NCBI GenBank assembly: GCA_000002445.1
Contig: CP000070.1
Location: 544,001-608,000, forward strand
DNA from: Trypanosoma brucei
Lineage: Eukaryota
DNA: 64,000 bases
Reading direction: 5' to 3'
Below the pieces are notes generated by a model. The model was not told the origin of the DNA. It did no database searches and saw nothing but the letters and a program-made list of their open reading frames with translations. Below, piece by piece: positions 11,499 to 58,765 of this stretch. A program made the translations under genes and the position numbers. Within the stretch, counting starts at the first letter, position 1. Every line of letters starts with the position of its first letter.

Positions 11499-11760
11499 CT
11501 CTCGCCGGTGGGGGCTGCGTTTTGGTGCCTGACGACTCTATGGTTTGGGAATATGATGACGATTCATTACTATTAGTCCTGCTGGATTGTGTATAAGAGC
11601 CGTAGTAGCTATAGTCGTCCGAATAGTCGCTGTAGCTGTAACTCGAGCTTTCATCTGCCTGTGATGCGCGCTTGTTTCCTGCGGGACCGGGGCGAGTACC
11701 CGCATAGGGAACAACAGTCACATCCCCAAATGTAACACGCGCACGGTTCGTCCGCTCCAT
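7648..11760 (-). CDS. Large hypothetical protein (1370 aa) with SY-rich and polyQ low-complexity N-terminal half, internal duplication and a non-repetitive C-terminal domain of about 750 aa
   Basis: This is a long uninterrupted minus-strand ORF. The N-terminus has SYSYSDYSDDYSYYGSY-type tracts, a Q12 run and Q/P-rich segments. A 46 aa block (GHQHPPMAQPHLQMGVQQVSPWAQQVPVGNQQPPAVHSQPPANIQ) is repeated exactly. The C-terminal half is complex and non-repetitive, and I do not recognise its domain. Confidence 0.7.
10634..11076. repeat. Two identical 137 bp direct repeat copies (10634-10770 and 10940-11076), period 306 bp, inside the 1370 aa CDS
   Basis: I compared the sequence directly. The copies are identical from tgttgaatatttgctggcgg through ggaggatgctgatgacc. 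This encodes the duplicated 46 aa block. Confidence 0.85.
11461..11497. repeat. (TTG)12 on the plus strand, i.e. (CAA)12 coding a Q12 tract in the 1370 aa CDS
   Basis: A perfect trinucleotide run is visible in the sequence. It translates to QQQQQQQQQQQQ in the minus-strand ORF. Confidence 0.9.
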
Positions 11761-11859
11761 TATTCGGTTTCTATGTTTTCTTTCCTCTCTGTTTCGAATA
11801 CGACTGGTATTGGAAACAGGAACAAGTTATGCAACGTTAATACAGAATCCCCCTGAGTC

Positions 11860-11862
<3 letters not shown>

Positions 11863-11895
<33 letters not shown>
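11863..11895. repeat. (TA)16 microsatellite about 100 nt upstream of the 1370 aa gene start
   Basis: Seen directly in the sequence. Confidence 0.9.
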
Positions 11896-11903
<8 letters not shown>

Positions 11904-15010: not shown

Positions 15011-15123
15011 GAATAAACGTAATAACGATGCTGTATGGCCTTCTTTCTCTTTGTTGTTTTTTTTTTTTGGTTCTTTTGGGGTTTCTTTTTTTTTTTTATT
15101 TTAGCGTTTACTGAATCTGCTTC

Positions 15124-15126
<3 letters not shown>

Positions 15127-15156
<30 letters not shown>
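15127..15156. repeat. (AT)15 microsatellite
   Basis: Seen directly in the sequence. Confidence 0.9.
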
Positions 15157-15158
<2 letters not shown>

Positions 15159-15784
15159 CTCGAGTGCCCTTTAAATGGTCTACGTGCAAACTTGTGAGCC
15201 CGTTTGCGGGGGAAAAAGGCAGGTCGCCGACAGCAACGCGCGAAGGAAATTAACAGAGGAAACGGAACAAGTTATGAAGCGTAAACAAAAAAGAAGAAAG
15301 TGCACGGTAAAGTATGAAGGTAACACAACACGGCAACTGCAAGCAGCGTCTGATGCAGAAATGACGTGAGAACCGTGGGGGAAGAGTTTAGTTTGTTATA
15401 TACTTATTTTAGCGTCTCGTTGTTGCACCGCCCCAGTTTTCGCATGACGTACACAATACGAGCGTTCACCCAACCGATTTAGAAGTTTTCTCTTACTTTA
15501 CTTTCTTTTACACGCGCTCACATCCTCTTAAAAAGTGCTTGTACGTACCGTACAACCTCGAATCCCACATTTTCCACGAACAATGGTGCCGAGAATCCAT
15601 TGTATCACATTTCCTTTTTAACGCTTTCTTGTCAACACTTTACCTTTTCTTCCTTTTGCCTTGTTTTGGCTATCATCCTCTGGGTCGAGAATCAACCATC
15701 AAACTTTTTTGTGCAAAGAAGAAAAACTGTAACCTTCTCCCTCATGGTGATTTTTATTTCCTCAACATCACTGGAGACAACTTA

Positions 15785-18700
15785 CTACTCATCCGCGACA
15801 GCCGCTGCTGCAAGTTTTTGCTCACGCCACCTCTGGAATGCCTTCTCTCTTTGTTCATGCAGGCGACGCTTTCTCTCTCTGTTTTTGGCGATCCGCTCCT
15901 GCTTAGCCACCATGATCCGCTTGCGTTTTTCCTCTCTTTCCTCTTTCGTAAGGATTTGGGACCGCTCGGTACGAATCATTTGCCTCTCCAAGCGGTCGTT
16001 GATTCTGAGAGTTTCGCGTCGCCGCCGCTTAGCAGCCTTCTCCTCATCAGTCAATTCTCCGTTGCGGTGCGCTGCAAGTGCCCGCACAACCTTCTTTCGA
16101 ACACGTTTTGCACGGCGGTAAAATGCAGCCTTTTCTTTTCGTCCACTTTTCTCGTACTGTTTATATAAAACACTCACCGGAGACGGAGCTTTTGTCTCTC
16201 GAGCTCGCGGCGTGAGGTTGAGAAGATTTTCCATTGCTGCCAGAAGGCGGATAGTAGCGGCCGATGTCATTAATGAATCGTCGTCTACCACTTCCTTCAC
16301 AATGTTGGAAGCCCATGCCGTGTCCAGCTGTACACGACTATTGTACTTGAGCACCATTTTGAGGCAATGCAAGTAGTCGTACAGAAGTGTGTACTTCATA
16401 TTATATACCGAGGTTGGTGTTACCGATTGAAGGAAACTGCTGATTGCACTTGCGGCGGATGCACGTAGAGTTGCCCCCAAGCCGGAGAGCCGCGGTAGCA
16501 CCGCTTCTACCATCTGACAACATCCTTGAAACACTCTTACGCGCTGGGGCCCTTCCAGAACCTCCACTTCGCTAAACTTCTCCAATGCTGCGGGTAGCAG
16601 TGCCCACGCAAACCCGTGACGGTAATGATGCATATCCCGCTTTACGGAAGGCATTCGTTTCTTTCCATCCCAACCACGGTCGCAGAAGATGGACTTGTAA
16701 AACTCCATCAACGTCACTCGAACGTCTTCACCTGCGTGGTTCTTATGTGCGAGGAAGGCGATGAAATGAAACACGCGAAGAGCCACGTCCTTCAGTCGGG
16801 TCATGCGCCGACGAACTACAAGAGCGTGTCGTGCCGAACGGCTCTCTTTGTTTACTAAAACCCGGTCCAGTTTGCGGCAATAGCTTTGAATGTCGGAAAG
16901 AAGTTGGAACAGACTCTCTGCCACGAGAAACCTTCCGAAGTAACGATTCTTCGTCATCATAAGCATTTGAAGGGACGAAACGGTACTGTTGAAAATCACG
17001 TCATCCGCCGCCTTCACATTTTCTCGACAAACCGCCAACAGAACCTGAAAAATGTGTACTGTTAATGGAGAGCGCATAGCCACCCCAACTCGTGTTGCAA
17101 CTTGAATTGCTCGGACAACATCACCCTTCTCCTTATTGGCTGTATCCGTTGGATACACGAATTGAAGATCTACGTTCCCAATCATACCCTTCAGTGCGTC
17201 AATGTACTGCTGAGTTGGAGCTTCTTCTTCCTCTTCGTCACCTGTATCAGATTCTTCATCCTCTACATCTGGATTGAGTTGCTCCTCATCGGCTCCCTCC
17301 TCCGGCTCCGTTGCTTCGTCCTCCTCAGTGGGTTCTTCGCTTTCATCCGCCTCTGTTTCTGTTTCTGTTTCTGTCTTATCCGCTTCATCCTCAGAGGGTA
17401 CATCACCCCCCTCGTCTTCCTCATCTTCGTCTTTTTCATCAACTTGAGTGCCTTCGTTGTTCTCGTCCTCCTCGTCACCTTCTTCTTCATCAGCTGAAGA
17501 ATCTTCCGCCTCTGCAGCTACTCCCTTTGCTTTAGCTTGCCTTATTAGTTCCCGGTCGTCCGTATGATAAGCCTCACGAAGCGGAGCCAAGACAAGGTCC
17601 AGAGTTGGCCGCTCTCGAACATAACGAGCAAAACGTAAAAGATAACCCGTCGCAATGCGGCGCACGCACACCATAAGGGGTAACACGTGAAGTGCCGAAG
17701 ACGGTCGCATCACGAGCGCCATCAACACATCATAAAACAAATCCAGAGTTTCCAACGTGCCCGTACGAAAGAACTGGCAAAGATCAGGTACCGTACTGTT
17801 AGCGAGGTTTTTCGCCTCTTCATTGCTGGGGTCGTCGGTACTCAGAATCAGAAAAAGCAATACGAGCAGCACATGAATATCTCGCTCCTCATAAAACAAG
17901 ACACTGCGGGTGGAAGAGCTTTCCAGTGCCTCAACAATACAATTGCGGGCCTTGCGGAAGTTGCGCTCAGTTGCGCCAGTGGTGTATCGCGTGATGCCCT
18001 TCTCCTCAGCCGCAAGATAATCCCTAATAACGCTTAAGGCACTCAACGTGCATTTTGGTCTTGACAAGGCGGCGGTGTACGTGAAGGAAAATACGTCCGA
18101 AAAAAGGTAGATAGCCCGATTCATGCATTTCTCATCACTGGACTTCGGAGTGGGGTAAAACCCAAACCGCAGCAAGGCACGAACCGCCTCGTCGACGTAT
18201 GTGCAAGTTACGCCCTCACGTAGCGGCACACTTAAGCAAGCCCGCAACTCCCGTAGCACCCACGTGCGGTTGGCGTGCGCAGACGGGTCCGAGTCCCTAA
18301 TGCAAAAATATTGTTTAATGAGGTCTCGGACTTTAGCATCCAGCATTTCAAGAGGCATCATCCGAAGTTCGTTGGGATCTGAAGCTTTTGCAACTATCTT
18401 CCTTCCATAACCCACCGCTTGGCTGGCAATCTTCAACATTTCTTGGCGTTGGTCGGCATCGTCGTTTTTTACAACCAATTGACCTAAACGGGCGACGAGT
18501 TGCTGAAACAGCGCCCGGCGCGGAATATCTGAGTTACCACGGCGGTAAGGCGCAATGGCGTTGTGCATCATTGTACTTAAATGCTCCTGCAGTGATTCAC
18601 CAGCGGCACAGCGCTGCACAAGGAGGTCAAACCAATCGTCCCACACGGGATGAACCATTGGGTACACGGCAATCACCTGTTCCTTGCGGAACAGAGCATT

Positions 18701-20230
18701 GGCAATTTGTTCCACTGTTGTTGGTTCTAGCGGATCCATCGCAGCATACTTCTGCACGGTGGTTGGGAGAAACTTTTTAATTGCCGGAGGTTTCGTCTCC
18801 ATTGCCATCAGACGTAGGAGCAGTTGCACTCCCTCTGGGCGAAAGTATTCTAACTTGGGGTAGAGGAAAAAGGCATATGATATCCATTCCATCACCGACT
18901 CATCCTCCCACAGCTTGGGAAACTTTTGAAGCGTTATTAACAATAAAGCCGCTGTCATGACGCGCGTAGCCTTTTGCTCAACGTAGGCAAAACATAAGTA
19001 CTGGGCGGCATGACGGGCATCTTCCACTCGCATCTTCCCACGGTTTGCAACCACGGCTCCCATCGCAAAAACAGCAGCTACAATGCGCTGGTTACGCTCA
19101 CCCCGCGTAGGGTCATTAATTGTGTCTGGGTCAAAATCATCCCAATCTCCCTGGTCTTCTTTCTGTTGCTCGCCTTGTGTATCTCTTCTCGCAGCCCGTG
19201 CCTCTAGTCGAGCCTTTGTGACTTTTAGCCGGGCATCGAGTGCTATTTCCTCTCCAATGAGTGAAAGCACAATAGATGGTGTAATGTCCGTTTCGCGCAA
19301 TGCAAGAAATAGAATATGTGCATGCAAAACAATCATCGCCATGTCCTCAGTAACCATGCCTAGCAGCATACGTGACAGAGCGTACGGAAGTGCGTGGTGC
19401 GCTGTATCCCGCATACTTTTCAGCGATCGGCAGTCAACGCCATCCACTAATTTGGCCTTTAGATGGTTAATCAGTGAATGCTGACCTTCTTTCCGACGGG
19501 TCGAGTTATGCCGGAGGCACATTTGGAGCAACGCACGAACGTGTTCCCGCTCCTTTACATTTTTGGCGAGCACTGCTCGAGACCGACTGACTTTTCCGTG
19601 TGTTTCGACCTGTTCACCATCCTTTTGATCACTGGCAGCAGCCGCCTCCTCCTCCTCATCTCCGCTGGTTAAACCCTGCGCTTTATTGTCGTAGTGTTTT
19701 TTGGTTCCACCACCGCGGCCCTTCCCCTTATTAAGTTCGTACTCTGCCCACTCATACCATACGATAAATGCTTGTACACTATTCGGTGCACCGCGTTCAA
19801 ATTTGCTTAAATATGAACGAAGAGATCGCACATCCTCCGGCAAATGTTGCTGAATAAATGGAGGAGGCACAAACTTGAATATCTCACTCAAATCCGCACC
19901 AAAAATATTGGTAGCATTTAACCTCGTTTTGAAGCTGGACAGATCGGAGCGCAACTCGGAGGAAACCTTGGCAGCTAAATGAATGTCAATGTCCTTTGTC
20001 CGAGCCGATCTCTGATGGGATCTTCCCTCGTGATTCCCAACAGCGGTGTGCTGCTGCGCGTGATGACCGCGGCGCTCCACCTGCTCTCGCGCATACTTTT
20101 CTTTATGATACCTTTTCGCCTCCTTCTTCACGTTGGTTGCTTTCCCCATTTTAGCCGAAGGCTTAACGTTACGGCGAGGGCCGCCGCTGGTGCCCCCTTT
20201 ACTCCCATGCTGAGCAAAGGAACCAGACAT
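15785..20230 (-). CDS. Large hypothetical protein (1481 aa) with an acidic D/E-rich tract of about 100 aa and a basic K/R-rich C-terminus; possibly a nucleolar or ribosome-biogenesis-type factor
   Basis: Long minus-strand ORF. The acidic tract is encoded around 17220-17520 (EDSSADEEEGDEEDENNEG...DEEEEEAP). The C-terminal 100 aa are rich in K/R/E (KRRRRETLRINDRLERQ...KRRLHEQREKAFQRWREQK). This architecture resembles MYBBP1A/Pol5-like or NOC-like nucleolar proteins, but I cannot confirm the family. Confidence 0.7.
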   Translation of the reverse strand: MSGSFAQHGSKGGTSGGPRRNVKPSAKMGKATNVKKEAKRYHKEKYAREQVERRGHHAQQHTAVGNHEGRSHQRSARTKDIDIHLAAKVSSELRSDLSSFKTRLNATNIFGADLSEIFKFVPPPFIQQHLPEDVRSLRSYLSKFERGAPNSVQAFIVWYEWAEYELNKGKGRGGGTKKHYDNKAQGLTSGDEEEEAAAASDQKDGEQVETHGKVSRSRAVLAKNVKEREHVRALLQMCLRHNSTRRKEGQHSLINHLKAKLVDGVDCRSLKSMRDTAHHALPYALSRMLLGMVTEDMAMIVLHAHILFLALRETDITPSIVLSLIGEEIALDARLKVTKARLEARAARRDTQGEQQKEDQGDWDDFDPDTINDPTRGERNQRIVAAVFAMGAVVANRGKMRVEDARHAAQYLCFAYVEQKATRVMTAALLLITLQKFPKLWEDESVMEWISYAFFLYPKLEYFRPEGVQLLLRLMAMETKPPAIKKFLPTTVQKYAAMDPLEPTTVEQIANALFRKEQVIAVYPMVHPVWDDWFDLLVQRCAAGESLQEHLSTMMHNAIAPYRRGNSDIPRRALFQQLVARLGQLVVKNDDADQRQEMLKIASQAVGYGRKIVAKASDPNELRMMPLEMLDAKVRDLIKQYFCIRDSDPSAHANRTWVLRELRACLSVPLREGVTCTYVDEAVRALLRFGFYPTPKSSDEKCMNRAIYLFSDVFSFTYTAALSRPKCTLSALSVIRDYLAAEEKGITRYTTGATERNFRKARNCIVEALESSSTRSVLFYEERDIHVLLVLLFLILSTDDPSNEEAKNLANSTVPDLCQFFRTGTLETLDLFYDVLMALVMRPSSALHVLPLMVCVRRIATGYLLRFARYVRERPTLDLVLAPLREAYHTDDRELIRQAKAKGVAAEAEDSSADEEEGDEEDENNEGTQVDEKDEDEEDEGGDVPSEDEADKTETETETEADESEEPTEEDEATEPEEGADEEQLNPDVEDEESDTGDEEEEEAPTQQYIDALKGMIGNVDLQFVYPTDTANKEKGDVVRAIQVATRVGVAMRSPLTVHIFQVLLAVCRENVKAADDVIFNSTVSSLQMLMMTKNRYFGRFLVAESLFQLLSDIQSYCRKLDRVLVNKESRSARHALVVRRRMTRLKDVALRVFHFIAFLAHKNHAGEDVRVTLMEFYKSIFCDRGWDGKKRMPSVKRDMHHYRHGFAWALLPAALEKFSEVEVLEGPQRVRVFQGCCQMVEAVLPRLSGLGATLRASAASAISSFLQSVTPTSVYNMKYTLLYDYLHCLKMVLKYNSRVQLDTAWASNIVKEVVDDDSLMTSAATIRLLAAMENLLNLTPRARETKAPSPVSVLYKQYEKSGRKEKAAFYRRAKRVRKKVVRALAAHRNGELTDEEKAAKRRRRETLRINDRLERQMIRTERSQILTKEEREEKRKRIMVAKQERIAKNRERKRRLHEQREKAFQRWREQKLAAAAVADE

Positions 20231-20744
20231 ACCGAACGCCTTTCTTTTTTAGTTGCTTATGTGCGTTCGGCCAGTAATTTCCTTTTGTTAGGTGGTTGTA
20301 ACGGCATTAAACAAGAGAGGCACCCCCCCCCAAAAATAAAAAATAATAATAATAATAACAACAGTAAGTAAAAAGGGGAAAGAAAACGCAGTAGAAGCGA
20401 AGGGTATCGGCAAACAGGGAAGTCAGCAGCAAAGAGATACAAAAAAAAATCAACATATCGCAACCCAACCAGCGTGGCCGAATAGGAAGTTGTTAAGACA
20501 GAGATGTAATAACTTAAGATAAAGGGTGGGTAAAACCAAAAATAGAGTAAAAATAAAACATGGCAAGGCGTTGTGAAGGAACGAGAAAATACAAATGGGC
20601 GAGATGAGGATGTCTTAAGCAAAAGTGTTTCGAACAGATACACACAAGTGCTGACATATCTCTCATGTGAATCCTCAATAGTAAGCACAACTGCAGTTGG
20701 CAATGCCCTCAAACGAAAAAAAAAGAAATTGTTAAAGGATAGAA

Positions 20745-20775
<31 letters not shown>

Positions 20776-21093
20776 TCATTATAATAATTATTATAGCACC
20801 CGCTGTCAAACAGCGGCAAAGGGTAAGGGAGTTCATTCCGTAACTTCCCCCTTCCATTAGGCAGGCACTCTGTTTCTTGCCATTAGAATTGGAGGGAAAT
20901 TTTCCCACGTTAGCAACAGGGTACGGACACGAATCAAAATAAAAAAGAAAAACAGTAAAAGCGAACGTTAATGGCGTAAACGCGGAGAGAAAAGTGAATA
21001 TTTGAAGTCGTTTTAGCTCAAACAAGTCAACACATAAAATGAACGTCTGTTGTTACCATCTGTTGGGGGAGGGGGAGGGACATAATAACAATA

Positions 21094-22167
21094 TTATTCA
21101 ACGCTAGACAGCATTTGCTTAACGGGTTCACTTTCCGTCGTACTTGCGCCTGCGTAGTCCATCTCTTTCAGGTTTACCTCCGTGTCAGATTTCTGCACAG
21201 CAGCCCCACTTACACCGTTGTAATTGGCGGAATCAAGCAATAACTCACCAGCACCACTCTCTGAGCGGCTGCGCTTGCGGCAGTTGAAAGAAGTTTCGTC
21301 ATCCACAGTTGTTGCTATCGTTTCCTCACCAATAATGTCCTCATAAACTTTCGAATCAGCATCGGTCTCTGCTTCCTTTGAAGTCGCTACCTCCACTTTT
21401 CCTTGAGCAGAAGCTTTAGGCGTTTCAGCGTCCGCTATTTGTGCCTGTGATATTTCCTCTGCTTCTGTTGTTGTCATTGTCTCCACTTCATCCGTGGCTG
21501 GAGGTTGCTGGACATCCGCTTTTCCCTCTTCATCCTCATTCACAATTGTTGAAGGGGTCACTGCTTTATTCACAACTGCAACAACTTCCTCCCTCTCTTC
21601 CTCCATAATTTTCTCAAACGGAGGTTTTGATTCATCCGACGTGCCCTCTTTTTCTTCAGAAACTGGCGATGGAGGAACTACCGCAATCATCTCCTCGGAA
21701 TTGATGTTTTGAGGTACTTTATTTACTGGTGCAACCTCTTCAGTTAGTAAAGAAACACAGTTAGGTGCTTCATTCACTTCGGTGCCATCAACAACAGAAA
21801 TGGACTCCAATACGGCGGGTTCTGCGGTAATTGGCACTTGTGACATTAACCGTATAAACTGGAGTAGAAAATTTAATGGCGTGGTGTCTTCGTAAATGTA
21901 GTGATCCTGCCTGTTTGTCTGCGTGTGTGTGTGTTTGTGTAAATACTTATTAGCACTTTTCCGCTGTTTACTTAGCAAATTTAGACTTTTATGTGTACGT
22001 ACGTAGATGTGTAAATACGTGCGAATTGTTTCGTCAATGAAGTTATTTTTTAAAAAAATGATTTTTTTTCCAAAGGAAAGAGGAGAGCACAGGGGAGAAG
22101 AATTGTGTTCAAGATAAGTTAACGTGTACGACTCTCCGTCACAAATTCCTTCCATACTGCAACGCAA
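21094..22167 (-). CDS. Acidic hypothetical protein. The ORF is 357 aa; the likely true start is Met at 21846, giving 250 aa
   Basis: Minus-strand ORF. The first 107 codons read through (GT)n/(CA)n and UTR-like sequence (HKHTHTQTNRQDHYIY). From MSQVPITAEP onward the protein is E/D/T-rich and acidic with no recognised domain. Confidence 0.5.
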   Translation of the reverse strand: MRCSMEGICDGESYTLTYLEHNSSPLCSPLSFGKKIIFLKNNFIDETIRTYLHIYVRTHKSLNLLSKQRKSANKYLHKHTHTQTNRQDHYIYEDTTPLNFLLQFIRLMSQVPITAEPAVLESISVVDGTEVNEAPNCVSLLTEEVAPVNKVPQNINSEEMIAVVPPSPVSEEKEGTSDESKPPFEKIMEEEREEVVAVVNKAVTPSTIVNEDEEGKADVQQPPATDEVETMTTTEAEEISQAQIADAETPKASAQGKVEVATSKEAETDADSKVYEDIIGEETIATTVDDETSFNCRKRSRSESGAGELLLDSANYNGVSGAAVQKSDTEVNLKEMDYAGASTTESEPVKQMLSSVE

Positions 22168-46575: not shown

Positions 46576-49500
46576 TCATGACACGAGTCCAGCGGAGCGA
46601 GCTCGAAGCCACGACATCAACAACTGTTGCTCAGCATTGTCAAAAATACCGGCACACGCTTTGGCGGTCGCTGTTGCACAACCCTCACCTCGCCCCGTTG
46701 CCGCCAAAAGGATGCGACCAATAGCCGTAACCTCCAAGGCCCGTGCCACCTCCAGCTCACTTGTGCCCTCCCTCTTTATCTGAAGTAAAACCTCGCCGTC
46801 GTGTTGTTTTGCTCTACGCGCAATTTGCGTAAGAAGATCCTTACGCAATTCCTCCTCCACTAGGCAAACAACTCCTGTTGCAGACATCCAGGCATCTGGC
46901 GACGGTAGCTGCAATAAACGCTGGACCAACTCTGCAGGACCCAATACAACATTCTTCGTATCCGGCATCAAAAATCGCTTTTGTGCAGCTACCACCGCCG
47001 TATCTAGTTCCAAACCGTAATATGACGAGGAATTACCGGATCCAGAAGCAACCCATGCAAGCCTGGACAAAGCCAGGCAACGTGAACGGTGCGTAACTAG
47101 ATCGTCGCCGTAAAGGAAATAAGATGCCGATGATGATGAAGGTAGTCGTGCACCTTCCTCGACTAATGAGTAGAAAGCTTGCGGCCTCATCAACCACAAC
47201 AACTGTGGCGCTTCCTTAGCAAGGAACTCATCGCGCGCAACTGCGCCCGCTTCGTACTGAGGAAGAAGTTCTGGTAAGAGCTGCAATTCCCATTCGCGGC
47301 GTTGGGTCAACAGCGTGCGGAGGGCAACCTCGAATATTTTCGGGTTTCGCTCACAGTATAGGCCGAGCCTATCATACTTGCCGCTAGGTTGCAGTGGGTT
47401 CTCCACTGGCTCAGCAAGGCAAAATGCGGAAACAACATCATCAACTACAAAATCTAACGCGAGTTCTTCGCATAAACGGAGAACACACGCCCCCACAGTC
47501 GTCTCAGTAGGGACCGGTGCGCCAAACGGGTAACCAAGTGGTTCTATCAGGAATGGCTCACGGAAGAGAGTGCTGCGCATGGCACTCGCGAAAAAGGTGG
47601 GACCACCTTCTGAATGGTTACGAAATGTGAAGTGAATGATCACAGCAATGAAATCCAGCAACCGTAGCTGGTCCTGCACAGGTACTAACCAAGACGAAAG
47701 CTCTGACGTATTCATCTTTTCACTTAACGGGTCAGCTGGTGCCGACATAGTTTCCATTTCAGATTTGCTCCACATCAACGAACCTGCCAGTGCATCTGAA
47801 AAGCACTTCGCGGCACTCGACAAGTGAAGCTGAATGCCATAATCACTCGCATCAGAACTTGTCCACATTAATGCTCGCACATTTTGGGGAATGGGACACA
47901 AACTCTCAATATCCTCACGAGACTCATCAATTGCCCGGGCTACAAGAACAAAGACTGATGCGACCGATAAAGCATCGTCGAATTTCGAGCGCCTGTCAAT
48001 CAACACACTGCCCTGAGTTTCATGGAGATTGTCACAAAGTACCTGTAGCAGCTGACTTAGTCGACTTGGGTCCCCAAAGACGATCTCCGCAGAAGTAGCC
48101 TGCGCACACATTGAGTTTGCGCTGGAGAGCTCACTTCGTGCTTGATCTGCAACGCAATTGATAGCTCTCCGCAAAAGCAGTTGGCACCGTTCACGCTCCA
48201 CAGCACTGCGCACCAACCGTCGGTAGTCTTCCACCGAACAACTGTCTCCATTTTGTGATAAGTTAGCCGCGAGCAGGGAGCTGTTGATGTTGTTACTACC
48301 TGCAGAAGCAAGTTGATAGAGTGGTGTCATTACTTCGAACCCCTCCACTGTTGTGGTTGCAGATGATGAACAGTGGGTTGTGTCATTCTGTAGCCGTCTA
48401 ATGGCAACCATTACCAGAAGCGCCTCCTGCATCGATAGGAGTCTGGCAATGGTTTGCGGTTGAAGGCGAAGTGCAATTTCCTTGTGAAGCAGCACAGTCA
48501 GAAGGAAGCGACGGTGTTCTTGCTGCCTCTGCACTACGCTATGGGTTACGTGCATAATAATGTTGTCATCCTCTATATTGAGGTCAGCCCGTGCCCAATT
48601 GCCCTTGTGGGGGGTGCTGTAGAGGCAAATGGCCTCACCCGCGTCCAGAACGGCAGAATCAATGGACATCTTACAGTCGATGCGGAGGCTATCCAGGAGA
48701 TTATTGAGGAGGCGAGTAACGTCATTAAGACCATCACGGCCTCCGGTAAAGCGTGATTGTTTCCATGCATCACTATTTTGTCGTATCCCGCTGCCTCTGC
48801 TGCCTCGGTCGTCGGCGGCCTCTCTAGAATCCTCCGCAGCCTCATGCAGTAACTCATCAGCTCTGGTGTTGGAGACTACTGGTCCGTTGATTCCCATCGT
48901 AACAATATGTCCATCCGGAAGAAGCGCACTCACAATAGGGAATTCAACGTTTCTCAACATGTGCACATCCTCACTGGAACAAGGATTTCGCACACCTAAA
49001 TCATTGTTTAGAAACACACAGCATTGCCCCGAAAGAATGGTTATCATATGCGAAGACTCATCCAAATAGATTTTCGTGTGGTGCAACGGTGCGCTGGCCA
49101 CACTGTGTGCAAGCAGCGCGATAGACTGCATACTGACCACCCGTCGCACAGCGCCCGTGCTCGGCTCCATTGTTACGACTTCCAAACTAGCATCCCAGCG
49201 GCTGCAAGAAAACAGATACACCAGGCAACACAAAGACAACGGAGTTTCGTCAAATGCCACTACGCGCCCTCGCCGCTGTAGCACCGAGGAAATGTTTGTA
49301 ATCCACTTGGCTCGTATACCACCCTCTGCGCTGCCGTTATTTTTCGGGCGTCGTCGTCGCAGAGGGCCAATATCTAGGAGAAAGAACTCCGATGCTGCAT
49401 TTACTGCCCATAGTTGTGTTGGGTGCTCCCCCCGAAATCGCAGCAACGTAAACTCCAGCCTGCTTCCGTCTGCTTCGTCATTGTTACTTTCCCTACTGTC

Positions 49501-50214
49501 CGTTGAGAGCAACCGTTTTGGTAGAAAGGAACTCCACCAAGAACCTCCAGATGACGACGTTGACGTCCGGACAGACACATTACAAGAGGTACGTTCAAAG
49601 CTAATCACGAAGCGCTCACCATCAATTTTAATTGCAACAAATATCGCGCCCGACAACGTACCCACAGCCGTCAGCGTTGCCTGCTGCTCCCTCCTGCAAG
49701 CGAAAGCCGAAACCTTAACGGGTTCATTTTCAGTGCTTACCTGAAACTCGACAGAGTGGTCAAGACTCGACACAACACCGTAATCTGTGCAAAAGGCAAT
49801 TGATTCGTCGTTCGGCCCAAGTTCCGTAACAAACAGTGGAAGACCTTCACTCTCCGTAAAAAAAGGAATATGGGCGACACGAGGGGCAGTGCGGTGCCAA
49901 AAAGGTTTTCGCATATCCCACACACGTAATAGCCGCGTGTTCTCATCAACCATCCAACAACTGTTAGTACCGATGCCGGACAGAAAGATGGAGGGCCGAA
50001 CAGACACACCACCAACACGTATATCGGCTTCAGCAATTGTGACAGGTCGCACCTGACCGACGGGGAAAGGACTAACAGCAGTAACAGATGGAGTTGTGAG
50101 CTGACTGACATCACACCCCAGCTCAGTGCTTCCAAGAGGAGAGCGCTCCGTACGAGCAGCCTTAGCAGGAGGAAGGAAAGCGAACATTAAATTACCCAAA
50201 TGGAAGGTAACCAC
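46576..50214 (-). CDS. Large hypothetical protein, 1212 aa, N-terminal region of beta-strand-like composition followed by a long helical C-terminal region
   Basis: Long minus-strand ORF. The N-terminal 450 aa or so are rich in short hydrophobic/polar alternations (VGTLSGAIFVAIKIDGERFVISFERTSCNVSV). The C-terminal 700 aa or so are rich in Leu/Ala helices. This would be compatible with a beta-propeller plus alpha-solenoid scaffold, but that is inference only. Confidence 0.7.
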   Translation of the reverse strand: MVTFHLGNLMFAFLPPAKAARTERSPLGSTELGCDVSQLTTPSVTAVSPFPVGQVRPVTIAEADIRVGGVSVRPSIFLSGIGTNSCWMVDENTRLLRVWDMRKPFWHRTAPRVAHIPFFTESEGLPLFVTELGPNDESIAFCTDYGVVSSLDHSVEFQVSTENEPVKVSAFACRREQQATLTAVGTLSGAIFVAIKIDGERFVISFERTSCNVSVRTSTSSSGGSWWSSFLPKRLLSTDSRESNNDEADGSRLEFTLLRFRGEHPTQLWAVNAASEFFLLDIGPLRRRRPKNNGSAEGGIRAKWITNISSVLQRRGRVVAFDETPLSLCCLVYLFSCSRWDASLEVVTMEPSTGAVRRVVSMQSIALLAHSVASAPLHHTKIYLDESSHMITILSGQCCVFLNNDLGVRNPCSSEDVHMLRNVEFPIVSALLPDGHIVTMGINGPVVSNTRADELLHEAAEDSREAADDRGSRGSGIRQNSDAWKQSRFTGGRDGLNDVTRLLNNLLDSLRIDCKMSIDSAVLDAGEAICLYSTPHKGNWARADLNIEDDNIIMHVTHSVVQRQQEHRRFLLTVLLHKEIALRLQPQTIARLLSMQEALLVMVAIRRLQNDTTHCSSSATTTVEGFEVMTPLYQLASAGSNNINSSLLAANLSQNGDSCSVEDYRRLVRSAVERERCQLLLRRAINCVADQARSELSSANSMCAQATSAEIVFGDPSRLSQLLQVLCDNLHETQGSVLIDRRSKFDDALSVASVFVLVARAIDESREDIESLCPIPQNVRALMWTSSDASDYGIQLHLSSAAKCFSDALAGSLMWSKSEMETMSAPADPLSEKMNTSELSSWLVPVQDQLRLLDFIAVIIHFTFRNHSEGGPTFFASAMRSTLFREPFLIEPLGYPFGAPVPTETTVGACVLRLCEELALDFVVDDVVSAFCLAEPVENPLQPSGKYDRLGLYCERNPKIFEVALRTLLTQRREWELQLLPELLPQYEAGAVARDEFLAKEAPQLLWLMRPQAFYSLVEEGARLPSSSSASYFLYGDDLVTHRSRCLALSRLAWVASGSGNSSSYYGLELDTAVVAAQKRFLMPDTKNVVLGPAELVQRLLQLPSPDAWMSATGVVCLVEEELRKDLLTQIARRAKQHDGEVLLQIKREGTSELEVARALEVTAIGRILLAATGRGEGCATATAKACAGIFDNAEQQLLMSWLRARSAGLVS

Positions 50215-55447: not shown

Positions 55448-58400
55448 TCAGCGGTTACGGATAACCCATCTCTCCAACACACAACCACACGTAAATGAAG
55501 CAACATCAACCCGCATATTCGGAGTACCACGACGTTTTTCTAAATCATTTACCGGACGGGAAACAAAACGCTTCAGCAACCGTTTGAACCGCCTATCCTC
55601 CTCCTGCAATAAAAGAATCCGCTCATCCTCCTCCACGTCCATAAGACTACAGGAAAAAGAACCAGAAGCGTCAACTCCTTCTCCTGCGCGTAAGCCGTCA
55701 TTTTGCAAAGAAGTTCCAGCACCATATGTATTGAAGGCACCAAGTGCAAGTCCCCTCCTGTCACTATCAAATCCAGAATATAGCACATCACCAGCTTTAT
55801 CACCGAAGGTAGATTCTGCAGTTTCACCAGCACTAAAAGGTCGCAACGAGTCAACTCCTTCTCCTGCGCGTAAGCCGTCATTTTGCAAAGAAGTTCCAGC
55901 ACCATATGTATTGAAGGCACCAAGTGCAAGTCCCCTCCTCTCACTATCAAATCCAGAATATGGCACATCACCAGCTTTATCACCGAAGGTAGATTCCGTA
56001 CTTTCACCAGCACTAAAAGTTATCAACGTTTCAGCAAAAAAATACAACCCTTTAGGGTCCTGTGTTTCAGTTGTGGTGGCATTATCCATAGATATCGCAA
56101 GCATGTCATCAGTGAATTGATCATGGAGATCAAATGCACAATCATCATATGCACACACAATATCTTTGCGGGAGGCGTCCTCTTCACCTTCAATAGCAGA
56201 AGCACATAATGCAAACCGCTCACGGCATTCATCACCTTGCAATCCTTCACGGTCCTGTGTTTCAGTTGTGGTGACATTATCCATAGATATTGCAAGCATG
56301 TCATCAGTAAATTGATCATGGAGATCAAATGCACAATCATCATATGCACACACAATATCTTTGCGGGAGGCGTCCTCTTCACCTTCAATAGCAGAAGCAC
56401 ATAATGCAAACCGCTCACGGCATTCATCACCTTGCAATCCTTCACGGTCCTGTGTTTCAGTTGTGGTGACATTATCCATAGATATCGCAAGCATGTCATC
56501 AGTGAATTGATCATGGAGATCAAATGCACAATCATCATATGCACAGACAATATCTTTGCGGGAGGCGTCCTCTTCACCTTCAATAGCAGAAGCACATAAT
56601 GCAAACCGCTCACGGCATTCATCACCTTGCAATCCTTCACGGTCCTGTGTTTCAGTTGCGGTGACATTATCCATAGATATTGCAAGCATGTCATCAGTGA
56701 ATTGATCATGGAGATCAAATGCACAATCATCATATGCACACACAATATCTTTGCGGGAGGCGTCCTCTTCACCTTCAATAGCAGAAGCACATAATGCAAA
56801 CCGCTCACGGCATTCATCACCTTGCAATCCTTCACGGTCCTGTGTTTCAGTCGTGGTGACATTATCCATAGATATTGCAAGCATGTCATCAGTGAATTGA
56901 TCATGGAGATCAAATGCACAATCATCATATGCACACACAATATCTTTGCGGGAGGCGTCCTCTTCACCTTCAATAGCAGAAGCACATAATGCAAACCGCT
57001 CACGGCATTCATCACCTTGCAATCCTTCACGGTCCTGTGTTTCAGTTGTGGTGGCATTATCCATAGATATTGCAAGCATGTCATCAGTGAATTGATCATG
57101 GAGATCAAATGCACAATCAACTTTTGTAGATGTACTGCGTATACGTGTTTCGTTGGATTTGTTATTTGTTTCCGCTGAGTTATTTTTTGTGCTGTTTTCA
57201 TTGTCTTTATCCGATATGCCTTGATGATTGTTTTCTTTGATTTCGTGTGAATATTCGTCTTTTTTTTTCTCTTCTATTTTTTTTTGTATTTTTTCTTTAT
57301 TTGCATCTTCGTAAATTTCTTCTTTTTGTGTTTTATTTGTGTTTCGTAGTATGTTGAACATGGCGTTTACCTCGTTTTCCATTATCTTATCCCTCTCGTG
57401 CTCCTCCCTGCATATTATTCTTTGCTTGTAGTTTTTCCTTTGTTCATGTGTGTTTATGATCCCCTCTCGTTCTGTTGTCTTTATTTTTTCTGGCTCTTCA
57501 TCGTCTGCCTTTATGTGTCGTTTAGTTGGTGATTGCGTTGAAGCCATGTCCTGTGTTTCGTTGAGCGTCGTTGGTGTGGAGTGTGACACTTTGTCGTTTT
57601 TCCATAAAATATTTATGAGTTCGTATATTTCTTGATCCATCGCCTCATCCAAGTCGGAGTCCCAAGAGTTCCATAGAAGGAGACTCTCATTGGTGTTAGA
57701 TTTTCTAACTGGATATTTTTCAGTTGGATGTCCTTTCTCATCTATTTCCTCTTTCTTTATTCGTGCAGCGTTTAACATTTTTAGTGCCAATCTCATCCTT
57801 GTTTGTAATTTATGGATTGCAATGGCGTGTTCAAGATACATTCGTTGACGTTGTGCTGACTCTTGTATACGCAGCTTTTCAGTTTGTAGCGGATACGCGT
57901 AACTAATCCATTCACCTGGGTTTATTTCCACCGCTGGTTCCTCCTCGTCGCTACACTCGCCGCCATCAACCTTCCTCGTGAGGTTGCGCCTATCGACGCT
58001 TTCCTTGCTAACTATCAAGTTGCGTCTCTCCTCCTCCTTCTCGATTACAGCATGTACATTTTGTAGTGCTAACCACATCTTTTCTTCTGCATCTAACCGC
58101 TGCTGATAAGCTTTAACCTGAAGCACTCTATGTGTCATCATTTTTTGAATTAGAGCGGAATACGCTTCCATTTCTTCTATGTGGAGTTCATGCCGTGCAA
58201 TGTCCTCATCGTGCTGAACCCTCCAACATGGGGGGTCAGTTGATACTTCACGCCGGCTCCTCTCTACACTACCCTTCAGGTCATCTGTGACGATGTGAGC
58301 AATTATATCAGCAGCCGGAGAAAGCGCAGGACTCTTAGAATGGCCTCGCCCCCTGGGCACAGACACTGTGTCGCCGCTGAACAGAATAGAACCGAAGCGA

Positions 58401-58765
58401 CCGATAGAGGTTGTTGCACTCATTGGGTGAGCACGTGCTGCTTTGAACCCCTGTCCAACCTGCCCACCATAAGAACGATGGAAGGCGGAGTTAAGCCTAA
58501 TGGGAGAAGGAGGGTTCTTTTCATAATACCGCGATGCAGACCGCGTGTCAACATCTTCCCACATCCCCACAGTACTGGTGCGAGAGACGCGATCTTGTGG
58601 AGCGGAAGGGGGTGGGGATGACGTGAAGCTGGCTACGGTTTTGCTCTCCAAACTATCCCTTCTAGTCGCCGCACGCTTGAGGAGCCCTGCAGCCCGCGCT
58701 AAACCTCCACGGCGTCTCGATGGCGCATCCGTATTTCGCGATCTCATCAGAAGATGCGCTGGCAA
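55448..58765 (-). CDS. Repeat-containing hypothetical protein, 1105 aa: unique N-terminal region with coiled-coil character, K/E-rich linker, 65 aa acidic Cys-containing repeat x about 5.5, then 60 aa Gly/Ser-rich repeat x 2
   Basis: This is a single continuous minus-strand ORF that spans both tandem arrays and has unique flanks. Other frames through the array (e.g. 56023-57201) are repeat artefacts. Confidence 0.75.
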   Translation of the reverse strand: MPAHLLMRSRNTDAPSRRRGGLARAAGLLKRAATRRDSLESKTVASFTSSPPPSAPQDRVSRTSTVGMWEDVDTRSASRYYEKNPPSPIRLNSAFHRSYGGQVGQGFKAARAHPMSATTSIGRFGSILFSGDTVSVPRGRGHSKSPALSPAADIIAHIVTDDLKGSVERSRREVSTDPPCWRVQHDEDIARHELHIEEMEAYSALIQKMMTHRVLQVKAYQQRLDAEEKMWLALQNVHAVIEKEEERRNLIVSKESVDRRNLTRKVDGGECSDEEEPAVEINPGEWISYAYPLQTEKLRIQESAQRQRMYLEHAIAIHKLQTRMRLALKMLNAARIKKEEIDEKGHPTEKYPVRKSNTNESLLLWNSWDSDLDEAMDQEIYELINILWKNDKVSHSTPTTLNETQDMASTQSPTKRHIKADDEEPEKIKTTEREGIINTHEQRKNYKQRIICREEHERDKIMENEVNAMFNILRNTNKTQKEEIYEDANKEKIQKKIEEKKKDEYSHEIKENNHQGISDKDNENSTKNNSAETNNKSNETRIRSTSTKVDCAFDLHDQFTDDMLAISMDNATTTETQDREGLQGDECRERFALCASAIEGEEDASRKDIVCAYDDCAFDLHDQFTDDMLAISMDNVTTTETQDREGLQGDECRERFALCASAIEGEEDASRKDIVCAYDDCAFDLHDQFTDDMLAISMDNVTATETQDREGLQGDECRERFALCASAIEGEEDASRKDIVCAYDDCAFDLHDQFTDDMLAISMDNVTTTETQDREGLQGDECRERFALCASAIEGEEDASRKDIVCAYDDCAFDLHDQFTDDMLAISMDNVTTTETQDREGLQGDECRERFALCASAIEGEEDASRKDIVCAYDDCAFDLHDQFTDDMLAISMDNATTTETQDPKGLYFFAETLITFSAGESTESTFGDKAGDVPYSGFDSERRGLALGAFNTYGAGTSLQNDGLRAGEGVDSLRPFSAGETAESTFGDKAGDVLYSGFDSDRRGLALGAFNTYGAGTSLQNDGLRAGEGVDASGSFSCSLMDVEEDERILLLQEEDRRFKRLLKRFVSRPVNDLEKRRGTPNMRVDVASFTCGCVLERWVIRNR
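55665..56025. repeat. 180 bp tandem repeat, about 2 copies, coding
   Basis: The motif tcaactccttctcctgcgcgtaagccgtcattttgcaaagaagttccagcacc occurs at 55671 and 55851. Each unit encodes about 60 aa (FSAGESTESTFGDKAGDVPYSGFDSERRGLALGAFNTYGAGTSLQNDGLRAGEGVD). Confidence 0.85.
56040..57120. repeat. 195 bp tandem repeat, about 5.5 copies, copies more than 97 percent identical, coding
   Basis: The motif ggtcctgtgtttcagttgtggtg recurs at 56251, 56446, 56641, 56836 and 57031 (exact 195 bp spacing), plus a divergent edge copy at 56055. Each unit encodes 65 aa (VCAYDDCAFDLHDQFTDDMLAISMDNVTTTETQDREGLQGDECRERFALCASAIEGEEDASRKDI). Confidence 0.9.

What the first reader, a model, noticed from the sequence alone, without database searches (positions are those of the whole stretch)
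56040..57120. Near-identical 195 bp coding tandem array (65 aa acidic, Cys-containing repeat)
Five and a half copies with more than 97 percent identity indicate concerted evolution. Copy number may be under-represented in an assembly and is likely polymorphic. Each 65 aa unit is strongly acidic and carries C-x4-C-x4-H and C-x6-C spacings (VCAYDDCAFDLHD ... DECRERFALCAS). This could indicate metal (Zn or Ca) binding or disulfide-stabilised modules rather than a purely disordered antigenic repeat. Tandem-repeat proteins in trypanosomes are frequently cytoskeletal or flagellar and immunodominant.
Basis: partly seen in the sequence, partly recalled or inferred. Interest (0 to 1): 0.5.

Follow-up and report, generated by a model that had tools for sequence, protein, structure and literature searches.

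The report
Collapsed repeat array in nuclear-pore protein
The 195-bp repeats are real and lie inside the Trypanosoma brucei gene Tb927.7.2330, a nuclear-pore/nuclear-envelope-associated protein of unknown function whose true array is about ten times longer than this assembly shows; this is already published, and the metal-binding and flagellar-antigen ideas do not hold up.

Summary
TRF finds 5.5 copies of a 195-bp unit at 56045..57119, with 98% matches. The array is in frame in a minus-strand gene (55448..58747).

The gene is T. brucei TREU927 Tb927.7.2330 (XP_845856.1, Pfam DUF1663).

The prediction that copy number is under-represented is right and already published. Lister 427 carries a gene more than twice the size ("extreme repeat collapsing", PMC8445201). 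I found at least 54 copies in a T. b. equiperdum PacBio assembly.

The functional reading is not supported:
- One Cys of the C-x4-C-x4-H motif is Arg in 20-40% of units in sister subspecies.
- Syntenic arrays have 1 Cys per unit in T. cruzi, 2 at other positions in T. rangeli, and 0 in T. theileri.
- The protein is listed as nuclear pore / nuclear envelope (TrypTag) and is a class-A MEX67 BioID and pulldown hit (PMC9791439). That is a reducing compartment, and it is not flagellar.

New here: T. cruzi (at least 51 copies) and T. rangeli keep exactly the same 195-bp period with an unrecognisable unit sequence, between conserved helical N-terminal and C-terminal parts. This is the NUP-1 type of architecture.

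Most likely role (inferred): a long, proline-free, helix-prone charged spacer or scaffold at the nuclear periphery. Interest is low to moderate.

The parts
55448..58747 (-). Complete CDS of Tb927.7.2330 as assembled in TREU927 (1099 aa, 123.84 kDa; stop codon 55448..55450). The true gene is much longer because the array is collapsed.
   Evidence: ORF and translation. 100% identity to XP_845856.1/Q57XP1. The computed MW of 123,838 Da equals the 123.84 kDa listed for Tb927.7.2330 in PMC9791439 Table S1.
58235..58747 (-). N-terminal basic region, predicted disordered (aa 1-171; the wider segment aa 1-185 has pI 10.9).
   Evidence: Composition. AF2 with a 6-sequence alignment gives pLDDT<50 for aa 1-171.
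57230..58234 (-). Conserved helical region containing Pfam DUF1663 (aa 172-506). It has four long helices and the invariant motif KEEERRN-IV-KE--DRR.
   Evidence: Pfam PF07909, 54.9 bits against a cut-off of 25, aa 186-409. Ortholog alignment A1. AF2 helices at 172-260, 277-338, 352-389 and 433-506, with block-mean pLDDT mostly about 75-94.
57116..57229 (-). Low-complexity K/E/N-rich linker before the array (aa 507-544).
   Evidence: Translation. AF2 pLDDT<50.
56141..57115 (-). Five complete 195-bp / 65-aa acidic units. This is the finding.
   Evidence: TRF. Unit coordinates and pairwise identities of 98.5-99.0%.
56057..56140 (-). Sixth, partial unit (first 28 aa of the unit), after which the sequence leaves the repeat.
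   Evidence: Unit parsing.
55658..56017 (-). Second array: two 180-bp / 60-aa Gly/Ala/Ser-rich units (FSAGE..STFGDKAGDV..SGFD..GAFNTYGAG..). It is unrelated in sequence to the 65-aa unit.
   Evidence: TRF gives 55670..56019, period 180, 1.9 copies, 97%. Protein-register coordinates, 93% identity over 180 nt. No similarity to the 65-aa unit: 672/1000 shuffles score as high.
55451..55657 (-). Conserved C-terminal tail (aa 1031-1099, ...EEDERILLLQEEDRRFKRLLKRF...LERWVIRNR).
   Evidence: 38% identity over 66 aa, E=1e-10, to the C-terminus of the T. theileri syntenic gene.

Best explanation
The array is the collapsed remnant of a very large, homogenised coding array, at least 54 x 195 bp (about 10 kb or more) in a long-read assembly of a sister subspecies. 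It lies inside Tb927.7.2330, a Trypanosoma-specific DUF1663 protein associated with nuclear pores / the nuclear envelope.

Shown:
- Gene identity.
- In-frame translation.
- Array collapse and variable copy number.
- Concerted evolution.
- A conserved architecture in syntenic orthologs: a helical N-terminal domain, then an array, then a conserved C-terminal tail.
- The same 65-aa period in T. brucei, T. cruzi and T. rangeli, although the unit sequence has diverged beyond recognition.
- Loss of the Cys/His pattern outside T. brucei.

From the literature:
- TrypTag localisation to nuclear pores / nuclear envelope.
- Class-A recovery in both MEX67 pulldown and MEX67 TurboID.

Inferred:
- The units are proline-free, helix-prone, mostly acidic modules, with two main helices and a linker per unit.
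- Their number and length, not their exact residues, are what matters. Together they would form a long extended spacer or scaffold. With 54 units the protein would be about 4,280 aa, 478 kDa, with net charge near -700.
- The scaffold would be anchored at the nuclear periphery by the conserved ends, as proposed for the lamina protein NUP-1.
- The array is kept uniform by unequal crossing-over or gene conversion.
- The Cys and His residues are incidental to the T. brucei version of the unit. They are not metal ligands or disulfide partners.
For: Identity:
- 100% match to XP_845856.1.
- MW 123,838 Da equals the 123.84 kDa of Tb927.7.2330.
- The ORF three genes downstream is 1203 aa and 132.36 kDa, matching NUP132 = Tb927.7.2300, Mr 132.3.

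Collapse:
- PMC8445201 Fig. 2E and text describe it.
- L004 has 54 copies ending in an N gap.
- DAL972 has 9.5 and about 15 copies.
- The T. equiperdum OVI model stops at the start of the array.

Translation in the annotated frame:
- The frame is continuous with the conserved N- and C-terminal parts.
- The MaxQuant row (3 peptides, 11.8% coverage) equals coverage by EGLQGDECR plus FALCASAIEGEEDASR(K) x 5 = 130/1099 = 11.83%. This is an inference from the numbers.

Conserved period and architecture:
- T. cruzi TCC L002 has a 195-bp array with 51 copies at 97%, running off the contig.
- T. rangeli L003 has 195 bp x 3.0 at 100%, cut by the contig end.
- T. theileri L001 has 87/93-bp arrays plus the conserved tail.
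- Synteny holds: two ribosomal S19 genes upstream in all four loci; the cNMP-binding and DNA-primase genes downstream where the contig extends that far, i.e. T. theileri and T. b. gambiense, as in the window.

Cys/His not conserved.

Structure:
- No Pro in any unit.
- AF2 places helices at equivalent positions in each unit, but at low confidence.
- The N-terminal domain forms long helices with block-mean pLDDT mostly 75-94.

Localisation and partners: PMC9791439 text and Table S3.

Precedent: NUP-1 has 17 near-perfect 144-aa repeats that are identical within a species and diverged between species (PMC3313915).
Against: - The structural claim is weak. Single-sequence AF2 of three units gave mean pLDDT 39.6 and pTM 0.17, so helicity and extension are unproven.
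- Unit-to-unit homology between T. brucei and T. cruzi/T. rangeli is not demonstrable by sequence. BLASTP gives E 0.46. hhalign gives probability 5.8%. The circular ungapped score has p about 0.004-0.007 with an ambiguous register. The shared 195-bp period could therefore be inheritance without constraint, or coincidence.
- T. theileri has a different period (29-31 aa), so the period is not universally kept.
- Acidity is not uniform. The T. rangeli unit has net charge of only -2.
- Three of the four Cys are invariant in all T. brucei-group units seen, so a lineage-specific use of Cys is not excluded.
- Localisation and the MEX67 association are second-hand, from one proteomics paper quoting TrypTag. 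The protein was only rank 105, with one unique peptide, in a NUP-1 co-IP.
- No functional data (RNAi, knockout) were found.
Confidence: 0.6

Rival explanations
1. Polyanionic, largely disordered binding platform. The array would be an intrinsically disordered acidic 'sponge' at the pore. It would bind basic partners multivalently (MEX67 with its basic/CCCH N-terminus, RNA-binding proteins, ribosomal proteins or histones in transit) rather than act as a structural spacer.
For: - Net charge is -13 per T. brucei unit, -8 in T. cruzi, and -6 to -10 in T. theileri.
- AF2 confidence is low.
- The protein is a class-A hit in both MEX67 pulldown and BioID.
- It was a moderate-confidence Y2H prey of SF3a60.
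- Unit sequence evolves fast, as is typical of disordered regions.
Against: - The T. rangeli unit is nearly neutral at -2.
- About 30% of unit residues are hydrophobic in amphipathic patterns, there is no proline, and AF2 predicts helices in every unit.
- Exact retention of the 65-aa period in three species is unexpected for unconstrained disorder.
Confidence: 0.22
2. Functionally neutral passenger expansion. Only the conserved N-terminal helical domain and the C-terminal tail are functional. The array would be a tolerated by-product of replication slippage or unequal crossing-over in genomes known to tolerate perfect repeats.
For: - The unit sequence is free to diverge completely between species, and the period changed in T. 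theileri.
- Assembled copy number varies widely between assemblies of T. brucei-group strains.
Against: - An open reading frame is kept across about 10 kb or more in T. brucei-group and T. cruzi arrays, apart from long-read indel errors.
- An array is present at the same position in four species.
- Proline-free, helix-prone composition is retained.
- In TREU927, variation among units is mostly synonymous, 4 of 6 sites.
Confidence: 0.12
3. One reading: each unit is a Zn/Ca-binding or disulfide-stabilised module using C-x4-C-x4-H and C-x6-C.
For: - The spacings exist in every TREU927 unit.
- Three of the four Cys and the His are invariant in all T. brucei-group units examined.
- High acidity would be compatible with low-affinity Ca2+ binding.
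Against: - The middle Cys is Arg in 4/10 DAL972 units and 9/44 T. b. equiperdum units.
- Cys count per unit is 4/1/2/0 and His count is 1/2/1/0-1 in T. brucei, T. cruzi, T. rangeli and T. theileri, so the pattern cannot be conserved in any register.
- There is no Pfam hit and no PDB sequence hit at E<=10.
- The protein has no signal peptide or TM segment and is labelled by MEX67-TurboID, so it is in a reducing compartment.
Confidence: 0.05
4. Cytoskeletal or flagellar immunodominant tandem-repeat antigen.
For: The only support is the general tendency of trypanosomatid tandem-repeat proteins to be B-cell antigens. This comes from background knowledge and was not tested here.
Against: - TrypTag localisation is quoted as nuclear pores / nuclear envelope.
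- The protein co-purifies with and is proximity-labelled by MEX67, together with nucleoporins.
Confidence: 0.03

Closest known systems
T. brucei NUP-1 (Tb927.2.4230), lamina-like nucleoskeletal protein
   Same: - Located at the nuclear periphery.
- Restricted to trypanosomatids.
- Very large.
- Helical terminal domains flank a central block of near-perfect tandem repeats.
- Repeats are nearly identical within a species but strongly diverged, and variable in number, between species (PMC3313915).

Here the pattern is the same: conserved ends and homogenised arrays that diverge between species.
   Different: - No detectable sequence homology. The exhaustive phmmer search returned only 7 hits, all DUF1663 proteins or fragments of this array.
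- The unit is 65 aa rather than 144 aa.
- The unit is acidic with helix-breaking linkers rather than continuous coiled coil.
- The quoted localisation and partners point to pores and MEX67 rather than the lamina. The protein was only a trace hit in a NUP-1 co-IP.
- An extended conformation has not been shown.
Pfam DUF1663 (PF07909) family of Trypanosoma proteins
   Same: The N-terminal helical region matches above the gathering threshold. Orthologs are found in T. congolense, T. cruzi, T. rangeli and T. theileri, plus one unnamed sequence.
   Different: The Pfam model covers only the N-terminal region (aa 186-409). The repeat array, which is the finding, lies outside it and is not described by any family.
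FG-repeat nucleoporins
   Same: Repetitive, low-complexity protein found with nuclear pores and recovered with the FG-binding export factor MEX67.
   Different: The 65-aa array has no FG dipeptide at all. The two 60-aa units carry only one FG each. The array is acidic, whereas FG domains are typically uncharged or basic (background knowledge). It is not an FG-Nup.
Trypanosomatid tandem-repeat B-cell antigens (for example cytoskeletal or flagellar repeat proteins such as GM6 and MARP)
   Same: A large, near-identical coding tandem repeat in a trypanosome gene that is collapsed in short-read or Sanger assemblies.
   Different: The localisation is nuclear pore / nuclear envelope, not cytoskeleton or flagellum. 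There are no serological data. The named antigens are recalled from memory and were not compared here.

Membership tests
Pfam DUF1663 (PF07909) | Whole-protein score above Pfam's gathering threshold | tested here: met
   54.9 bits against a cut-off of 25, E 8.9e-15, aa 186-409. The array itself lies outside the domain.
Pfam DUF1663 (PF07909) | Orthologs restricted to Trypanosoma, with a conserved helical core motif | tested here: met
   An exhaustive phmmer search of 1.84 billion representatives gave 7 hits. The six that carry an organism name are Trypanosoma and one has no name. KEEERRN-IV-KE--DRR is invariant in 6 sequences.
Zinc-finger / metal-binding or disulfide module | Ligand Cys/His conserved across units and across orthologous repeats | tested here: not met
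   C to R in 4/10 DAL972 units and 9/44 T. b. equiperdum units. Cys per unit is 4/1/2/0 and His is 1/2/1/0-1 in T. brucei, T. cruzi, T. rangeli and T. theileri.
Zinc-finger / metal-binding or disulfide module | Match to a described metal-binding family or solved structure | tested here: not met
   No Pfam family other than DUF1663 at E<=1. No PDB sequence match at E<=10 for two units.
Zinc-finger / metal-binding or disulfide module | Actual metal content, or disulfides in vivo | not testable with these tools
   This needs ICP-MS or a PAR assay, or redox proteomics. The compartment is inferred to be reducing because there is no signal peptide or TM segment and the protein is labelled by MEX67-TurboID.
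FG-repeat nucleoporin | Dense FG (GLFG/FxFG/xxFG) motifs in a disordered domain | tested here: not met
   0 FG in the 353-aa array region. 2 FG in the 133-aa second repeat region.
NUP-1-type nuclear-periphery repeat protein (architecture class, not a homology family) | Near-perfect tandem repeats that are homogeneous within a species and diverged between species, flanked by conserved ends | tested here: met
   About 97-100% identity within T. brucei, T. cruzi and T. rangeli arrays, and 86-96% in T. theileri. No significant similarity between species. Conserved N-terminal and C-terminal parts.
NUP-1-type nuclear-periphery repeat protein (architecture class, not a homology family) | Sequence homology to NUP-1 | tested here: not met
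   NUP-1 is not among the 7 phmmer hits.
NUP-1-type nuclear-periphery repeat protein (architecture class, not a homology family) | Predominantly coiled-coil / extended helical repeats | tested here: inconclusive
   AF2 gives helices in each unit, but with mean pLDDT 39.6. The N-terminal domain has confident long helices. No coiled-coil predictor was available.
NUP-1-type nuclear-periphery repeat protein (architecture class, not a homology family) | Nuclear-envelope localisation and extended conformation in cells | not testable with these tools
   Localisation is known only from the literature (TrypTag, quoted in PMC9791439). Extension is untested.
Trypanosomatid tandem-repeat antigen | Recognition by infection sera | not testable with these tools
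   No serological data were found in the four papers that mention the gene.

The most novel reading that the evidence does not exclude
Tb927.7.2330 and its Trypanosoma orthologs could be a previously unrecognised giant filament or tether of the nuclear pore periphery. The T. brucei protein would be about 480 kDa or more, with 50 or more modules. If mostly helical, each 65-aa module spans up to about 10 nm, so the whole array would reach several hundred nm. The module length of 65 aa would be under selection across T. brucei, T. cruzi and T. rangeli, while the sequence, including all Cys and His, drifts and is re-homogenised. That would make it a second NUP-1-like system, this one attached to pores and the MEX67 mRNA-export route, acting as a length-dependent spacer or multivalent docking rail.
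Probability: 0.15. Interest if true: 0.6.

Novelty: already known. Interest (0 to 1): 0.3.

Why it matters
In practice, the TREU927 reference model of this gene (1099 aa, 124 kDa) is a severe underestimate. This affects proteomic quantification, because nearly all detectable peptides appear to come from the repeat. It also affects tagging and western-blot expectations and RNAi or CRISPR design.

Biologically, the protein is one of the few uncharacterised class-A hits shared by MEX67 pulldown and BioID. It may therefore be a lineage-specific component of the trypanosome pore periphery or mRNA-export route.

The cross-species finding is a testable hint that array geometry rather than sequence is functional, as was argued for NUP-1. 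The hint is the same 65-aa period with an unrelated sequence, between conserved ends. The result also removes a tempting but unsupported metal-binding annotation.

Tried and rejected
1. The search for homologous proteins was used three times: with the full protein, the N-terminal half and a 6-sequence profile. Each time the 8000-candidate word filter was swamped, and only the self cluster or T. theileri was returned. The exhaustive phmmer search was what found the orthologs.

2. Residue-level homology between T. brucei and T. cruzi/T. rangeli units could not be established.
   - BLASTP gave E 0.46.
   - hhalign gave probability 5.8% in a different register.
   - The best circular ungapped rotation was 27, with p about 0.004-0.007.
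   - The T. cruzi unit has an internal 27/38 sub-repeat, p about 0.004, which explains two competing registers.
   - Conclusion: the register is undetermined, so I used only register-independent counts of Cys and His.

3. The T. theileri 29-aa unit was compared with the others and was not significant.

4. Is the 60-aa unit a degenerate 65-aa unit? No: 672/1000 shuffles score as high.

5. NES idea. FTDDMLAISM fits the class-1a NES pattern, but only in T. brucei and not in T. cruzi or T. rangeli. Dropped.

6. FG-Nup idea. No FG in the array. Dropped.

7. Relation to the T. cruzi 195-bp satellite. A TCZ1 primer sequence recalled from memory has 0 matches with up to 3 mismatches in L002. This is a weak test, and the shared 195 bp is treated as coincidence.

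8. AF2 on three units without an alignment gave pLDDT 39.6 and is uninformative on fold. AF2 of the N-terminal half gave long helices with pTM 0.21, and Foldseek against the PDB found nothing at E<=0.001.

9. PDB sequence search with two units gave no hit.

10. Supplement look-ups.
   - The Lister 427 size ratio was not found in the PMC8445201 supplements.
   - The TrypTag annotation was not found in the PMC9791439... see next line.
   - The TrypTag annotation was not found in the PMC9981465 supplements.

11. T. congolense and the unnamed 432-aa ortholog could not be traced to contigs. The closest relatives of T. brucei therefore could not be checked for arrays.
Full report

Yes. Tandem Repeats Finder reports an array at 56045..57119 with period 195, 5.5 copies, 98% matches and no indels. 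A second array lies next to it at 55670..56019 (period 180, 1.9 copies). These are the only two tandem arrays scoring at least 150 in the 64-kb window.

Both arrays lie in one minus-strand ORF, 55448..58747 from the first ATG, 1099 aa. In protein register there are five complete 65-aa units (window 56141..57115) and a 28-aa partial sixth unit.

The five units are 98.5-99.0% identical in DNA. They differ at six sites, four of them synonymous.

**2. What gene is it?**

The protein is 100% identical to T. brucei brucei TREU927 XP_845856.1 / Q57XP1, on a 2.2-Mb contig. Pfam finds DUF1663 (PF07909) at aa 186-409, at 54.9 bits against a cut-off of 25, and nothing else at E<=1.

The gene ID is Tb927.7.2330:
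- The computed mass is 123,838 Da. The mass listed for Tb927.7.2330 in the supplement of PMC9791439 is 123.84 kDa.
- Three genes downstream there is a 1203-aa, 132.36-kDa ORF. This matches NUP132 = Tb927.7.2300, Mr 132.3.

**3. Copy number**

PMC8445201 (Fig. 2E and text) uses exactly this gene. It compares Tb427_070027900 with Tb927.7.2330 as an example of "extreme repeat collapsing" in the Sanger TREU927 assembly. The Lister 427 protein is more than twice as large.

I confirmed this independently:
- The T. b. equiperdum IVM-t1 PacBio chromosome (L004) has 54 copies at 11629..22069, with 97% matches. The array ends in an N gap, so 54 is a lower bound. Its annotation breaks the array into six gene models because of frameshift errors.
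- T. b. gambiense DAL972 has two models with 9.5 and about 15 units, separated by a 100-N gap. This is probably an assembly artefact rather than a duplication.
- The T. equiperdum OVI model stops at the first unit.

With 54 units the protein would be about 4,284 aa and 478 kDa, with net charge near -714.

**4. Concerted evolution**

This is supported. Unit position 171 is A in all 5 TREU927 units and G in all 38 clean units from DAL972 and IVM-t1. Positions 45 and 67 behave similarly. Variants are therefore spread array-wide within a strain.

**5. Is it translated in this frame?**

- The frame is continuous with the conserved N-terminal domain and with a conserved C-terminal tail.
- The MaxQuant row for the protein lists 3 peptides and 11.8% coverage. 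The repeat-derived tryptic peptides EGLQGDECR, FALCASAIEGEEDASR and its missed-cleavage form with K cover 26 aa x 5 = 130/1099 = 11.83%. This is an inference from the numbers.
- A 392-aa ORF in another frame of the same strand (56023..57201) is a by-product of the repeat lacking stop codons in that frame.

**6. Orthologs and their arrays (the new part)**

An exhaustive phmmer search of 1.84 billion representatives found only 7 proteins. The six that carry an organism name are all Trypanosoma:
- T. congolense
- T. theileri
- T. cruzi
- T. rangeli
- two T. b. equiperdum array fragments

One 432-aa sequence is unnamed. No protein outside the T. brucei group matches the 65-aa unit.

The loci I could fetch are syntenic. 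They share two ribosomal S19-family genes upstream. The cNMP-binding and DNA-primase genes lie downstream wherever the contig extends that far (window genes).

- **T. cruzi TCC (L002).** The ortholog carries a 195-bp array of at least 51 copies, 97% matches, running off the contig end. A typical unit is RGQLVGGERDGTYGLHRDAVDSEERAVRRCLEGGEAAAVDELGEAYRSATHERAVEALAAEEDAA.
- **T. rangeli (L003).** It has a 195-bp array, 3.0 copies at 100%, cut by the contig end. Its unit is 33/65 identical to the T. cruzi unit in register.
- **T. theileri (L001).** It has 87- and 93-bp arrays interrupted by N gaps, followed by a C-terminal tail. The tail is 38% identical to the T. brucei tail (E=1e-10) and ends in LERW[VI][IV]RNR.

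The architecture is therefore conserved: disordered basic N-terminus, helical DUF1663 region, homogenised array, conserved tail. The 65-aa period is identical in three species.

The unit sequences of T. brucei and T. cruzi/T. rangeli, however, are not demonstrably alignable:
- BLASTP gives E 0.46.
- hhalign gives probability 5.8%.
- The circular ungapped score has p about 0.004-0.007 at rotation 27.
- The T. cruzi unit has an internal 27/38 sub-repeat, which blurs the register.

**7. Metal-binding or disulfide hypothesis**

It is met.
- Within T. brucei subspecies, the middle Cys of C-x4-C-x4-H is Arg in 4/10 DAL972 units and 9/44 IVM-t1 units.
- Across species, counts per unit are Cys 4/1/2/0 and His 1/2/1/0-1 for T. 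brucei, T. cruzi, T. rangeli and T. theileri. No register could conserve the pattern.
- There is no Pfam hit and no PDB sequence match.
- There is no signal peptide or TM-like segment: the maximum Kyte-Doolittle score over 19 residues is 0.94. The protein is also biotinylated by MEX67-TurboID. It therefore faces the nucleoplasm or cytoplasm, a reducing environment in which structural disulfides are not expected (established knowledge).
- What remains possible is a lineage-specific use of the three Cys that are invariant in T. brucei-group units.

**8. Localisation and partners (literature)**

PMC9791439 lists Tb927.7.2330 among 12 proteins with NPC or nuclear-envelope localisation that were common to MEX67 pulldown and MEX67 BioID. 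It is class A in both. Its tables give "nuclear pores" / "NE", with TrypTag as the evidence.

Other data:
- It was a moderate-confidence Y2H prey of SF3a60.
- It was a trace hit, rank 105 with one unique peptide, in a NUP-1 co-IP.

Nothing supports a flagellar or cytoskeletal location. Only four papers in the library mention the gene, and none reports a function.

**9. Structure**

AF2 on three units without an alignment is low confidence (pLDDT 39.6, pTM 0.17). It places two main helices and a short third helix, separated by the TTTETQDREGLQGD linker, at equivalent positions in each unit.

All four species' units lack proline and are rich in Ala, Glu and Arg.

The N-terminal half, modelled with a six-sequence alignment, has aa 1-171 disordered. 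It has four long helices (172-260, 277-338, 352-389, 433-506) with block-mean pLDDT mostly about 75-94, and no compact fold (pTM 0.21). Foldseek against the PDB found nothing.

**10. Best explanation and rivals**

I favour a NUP-1-like logic. Conserved ends would anchor the protein at the pore or envelope. A long, homogenised, helix-prone charged array would provide length or multivalency, with the exact residues, Cys and His included, being dispensable. NUP-1 is the documented precedent: 17 near-perfect 144-aa repeats, identical within a species and diverged between species (PMC3313915).

The main rival is a disordered polyacidic binding platform for MEX67 or basic cargo. A neutral passenger expansion is also possible. 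The Zn/disulfide module and the flagellar antigen are unlikely.

**11. Novelty and score**

The gene, its DUF1663 annotation, the collapse of its array, and its pore/envelope localisation and MEX67 association are all already published. So the finding itself is already known.

To my knowledge, three points are not reported:
- the identical 195-bp period in the T. cruzi and T. rangeli orthologs despite unrelated unit sequence;
- the conserved C-terminal tail;
- the non-conservation of the Cys/His pattern.

These make a modest, testable hypothesis about a giant pore-associated spacer. Interest is 0.3.

Noticed in passing
window 55658..56017 (-): There is a second coding array directly after the 65-aa array: two 60-aa Gly/Ala/Ser-rich units with FG-like motifs (STFG, SGFD, GAFNTYGAG). 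In DAL972 the motifs are STFG and YFGF. The PMC8445201 figure legend mentions two kinds of repeat box, so this array may also be longer in Lister 427. It is unrelated in sequence to the 65-aa unit. The T. theileri tail region has no FG.
   Followed up: partly
L005 5004..15068, N gap at 9300..9399: T. b. gambiense DAL972 annotates two adjacent DUF1663 genes (1359 aa and 1687 aa, the latter flagged LOW QUALITY). They are separated by a 100-N gap. The sequence after the gap restarts inside the upstream region of the same gene at 97.8% identity. This is probably two collapsed versions of one locus, possibly alleles, placed in tandem rather than a true duplication.
   Followed up: partly
L004 12657..18604: In the T. 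b. equiperdum IVM-t1 PacBio assembly the array is annotated as six separate 'hypothetical protein' genes (DPX39_070031500 to 070032000). Indel errors (2% indels by TRF) break the frame.
   Followed up: yes
L001 10001..14536, N runs at 11780..12125 and 12305..13514: The T. theileri 'partial' DUF1663 protein (TM35_000191370) and the next gene model (339 aa) are the two ends of one gene. It is split by assembly gaps inside its 29-31-aa repeat array. The second model ends in the conserved LERWIVRNR tail.
   Followed up: yes
window 56023..57201 (-): A 392-aa ORF in a different frame of the same strand stays open through the whole array, because the unit has no stop codon in that frame. Fragments of this frame appear at the ends of frameshifted T. 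b. equiperdum protein models such as P0006 and P0008. It is not a real gene.
   Followed up: yes
window 46576..50214 (-): NUP132 (Tb927.7.2300; 1203 aa, 132.36 kDa from the first ATG) lies three genes downstream of this pore-associated protein. The gene order DUF1663, cNMP-binding, DNA primase small subunit, large protein is kept in T. theileri and T. b. gambiense. Given polycistronic transcription this proximity is probably coincidental.
   Followed up: partly
L002 11583..21519: The T. cruzi 65-aa unit contains an internal sub-repeat at offsets 27/38. An ERAV-containing helix occurs twice (EERAVRRCLE and HERAVEALAA), with 11/3000 shuffles scoring as high. This hints that the 65-aa unit arose from a roughly 30-aa unit like the one seen in T. 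theileri. The T. brucei unit shows no such self-similarity.
   Followed up: partly
PMC9791439 Table S1 row for Tb927.7.2330, compared with window 56141..57115: The reported 3 peptides and 11.8% coverage equal exactly the coverage given by the repeat-derived tryptic peptides EGLQGDECR and FALCASAIEGEEDASR(K) in five units (11.83%). MS detection and intensity of this protein may therefore rest entirely on repeat peptides and scale with copy number.
   Followed up: partly
L001 3065..9158, L002 2540..8748, L003 1..6591, L004 950..8551: Upstream of the DUF1663 gene, two copies of a 152-aa ribosomal S19-family gene flank a gene of about 1020-1050 aa with no Pfam hit. The arrangement is conserved in T. 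brucei-group, T. cruzi, T. rangeli and T. theileri loci.
   Followed up: no
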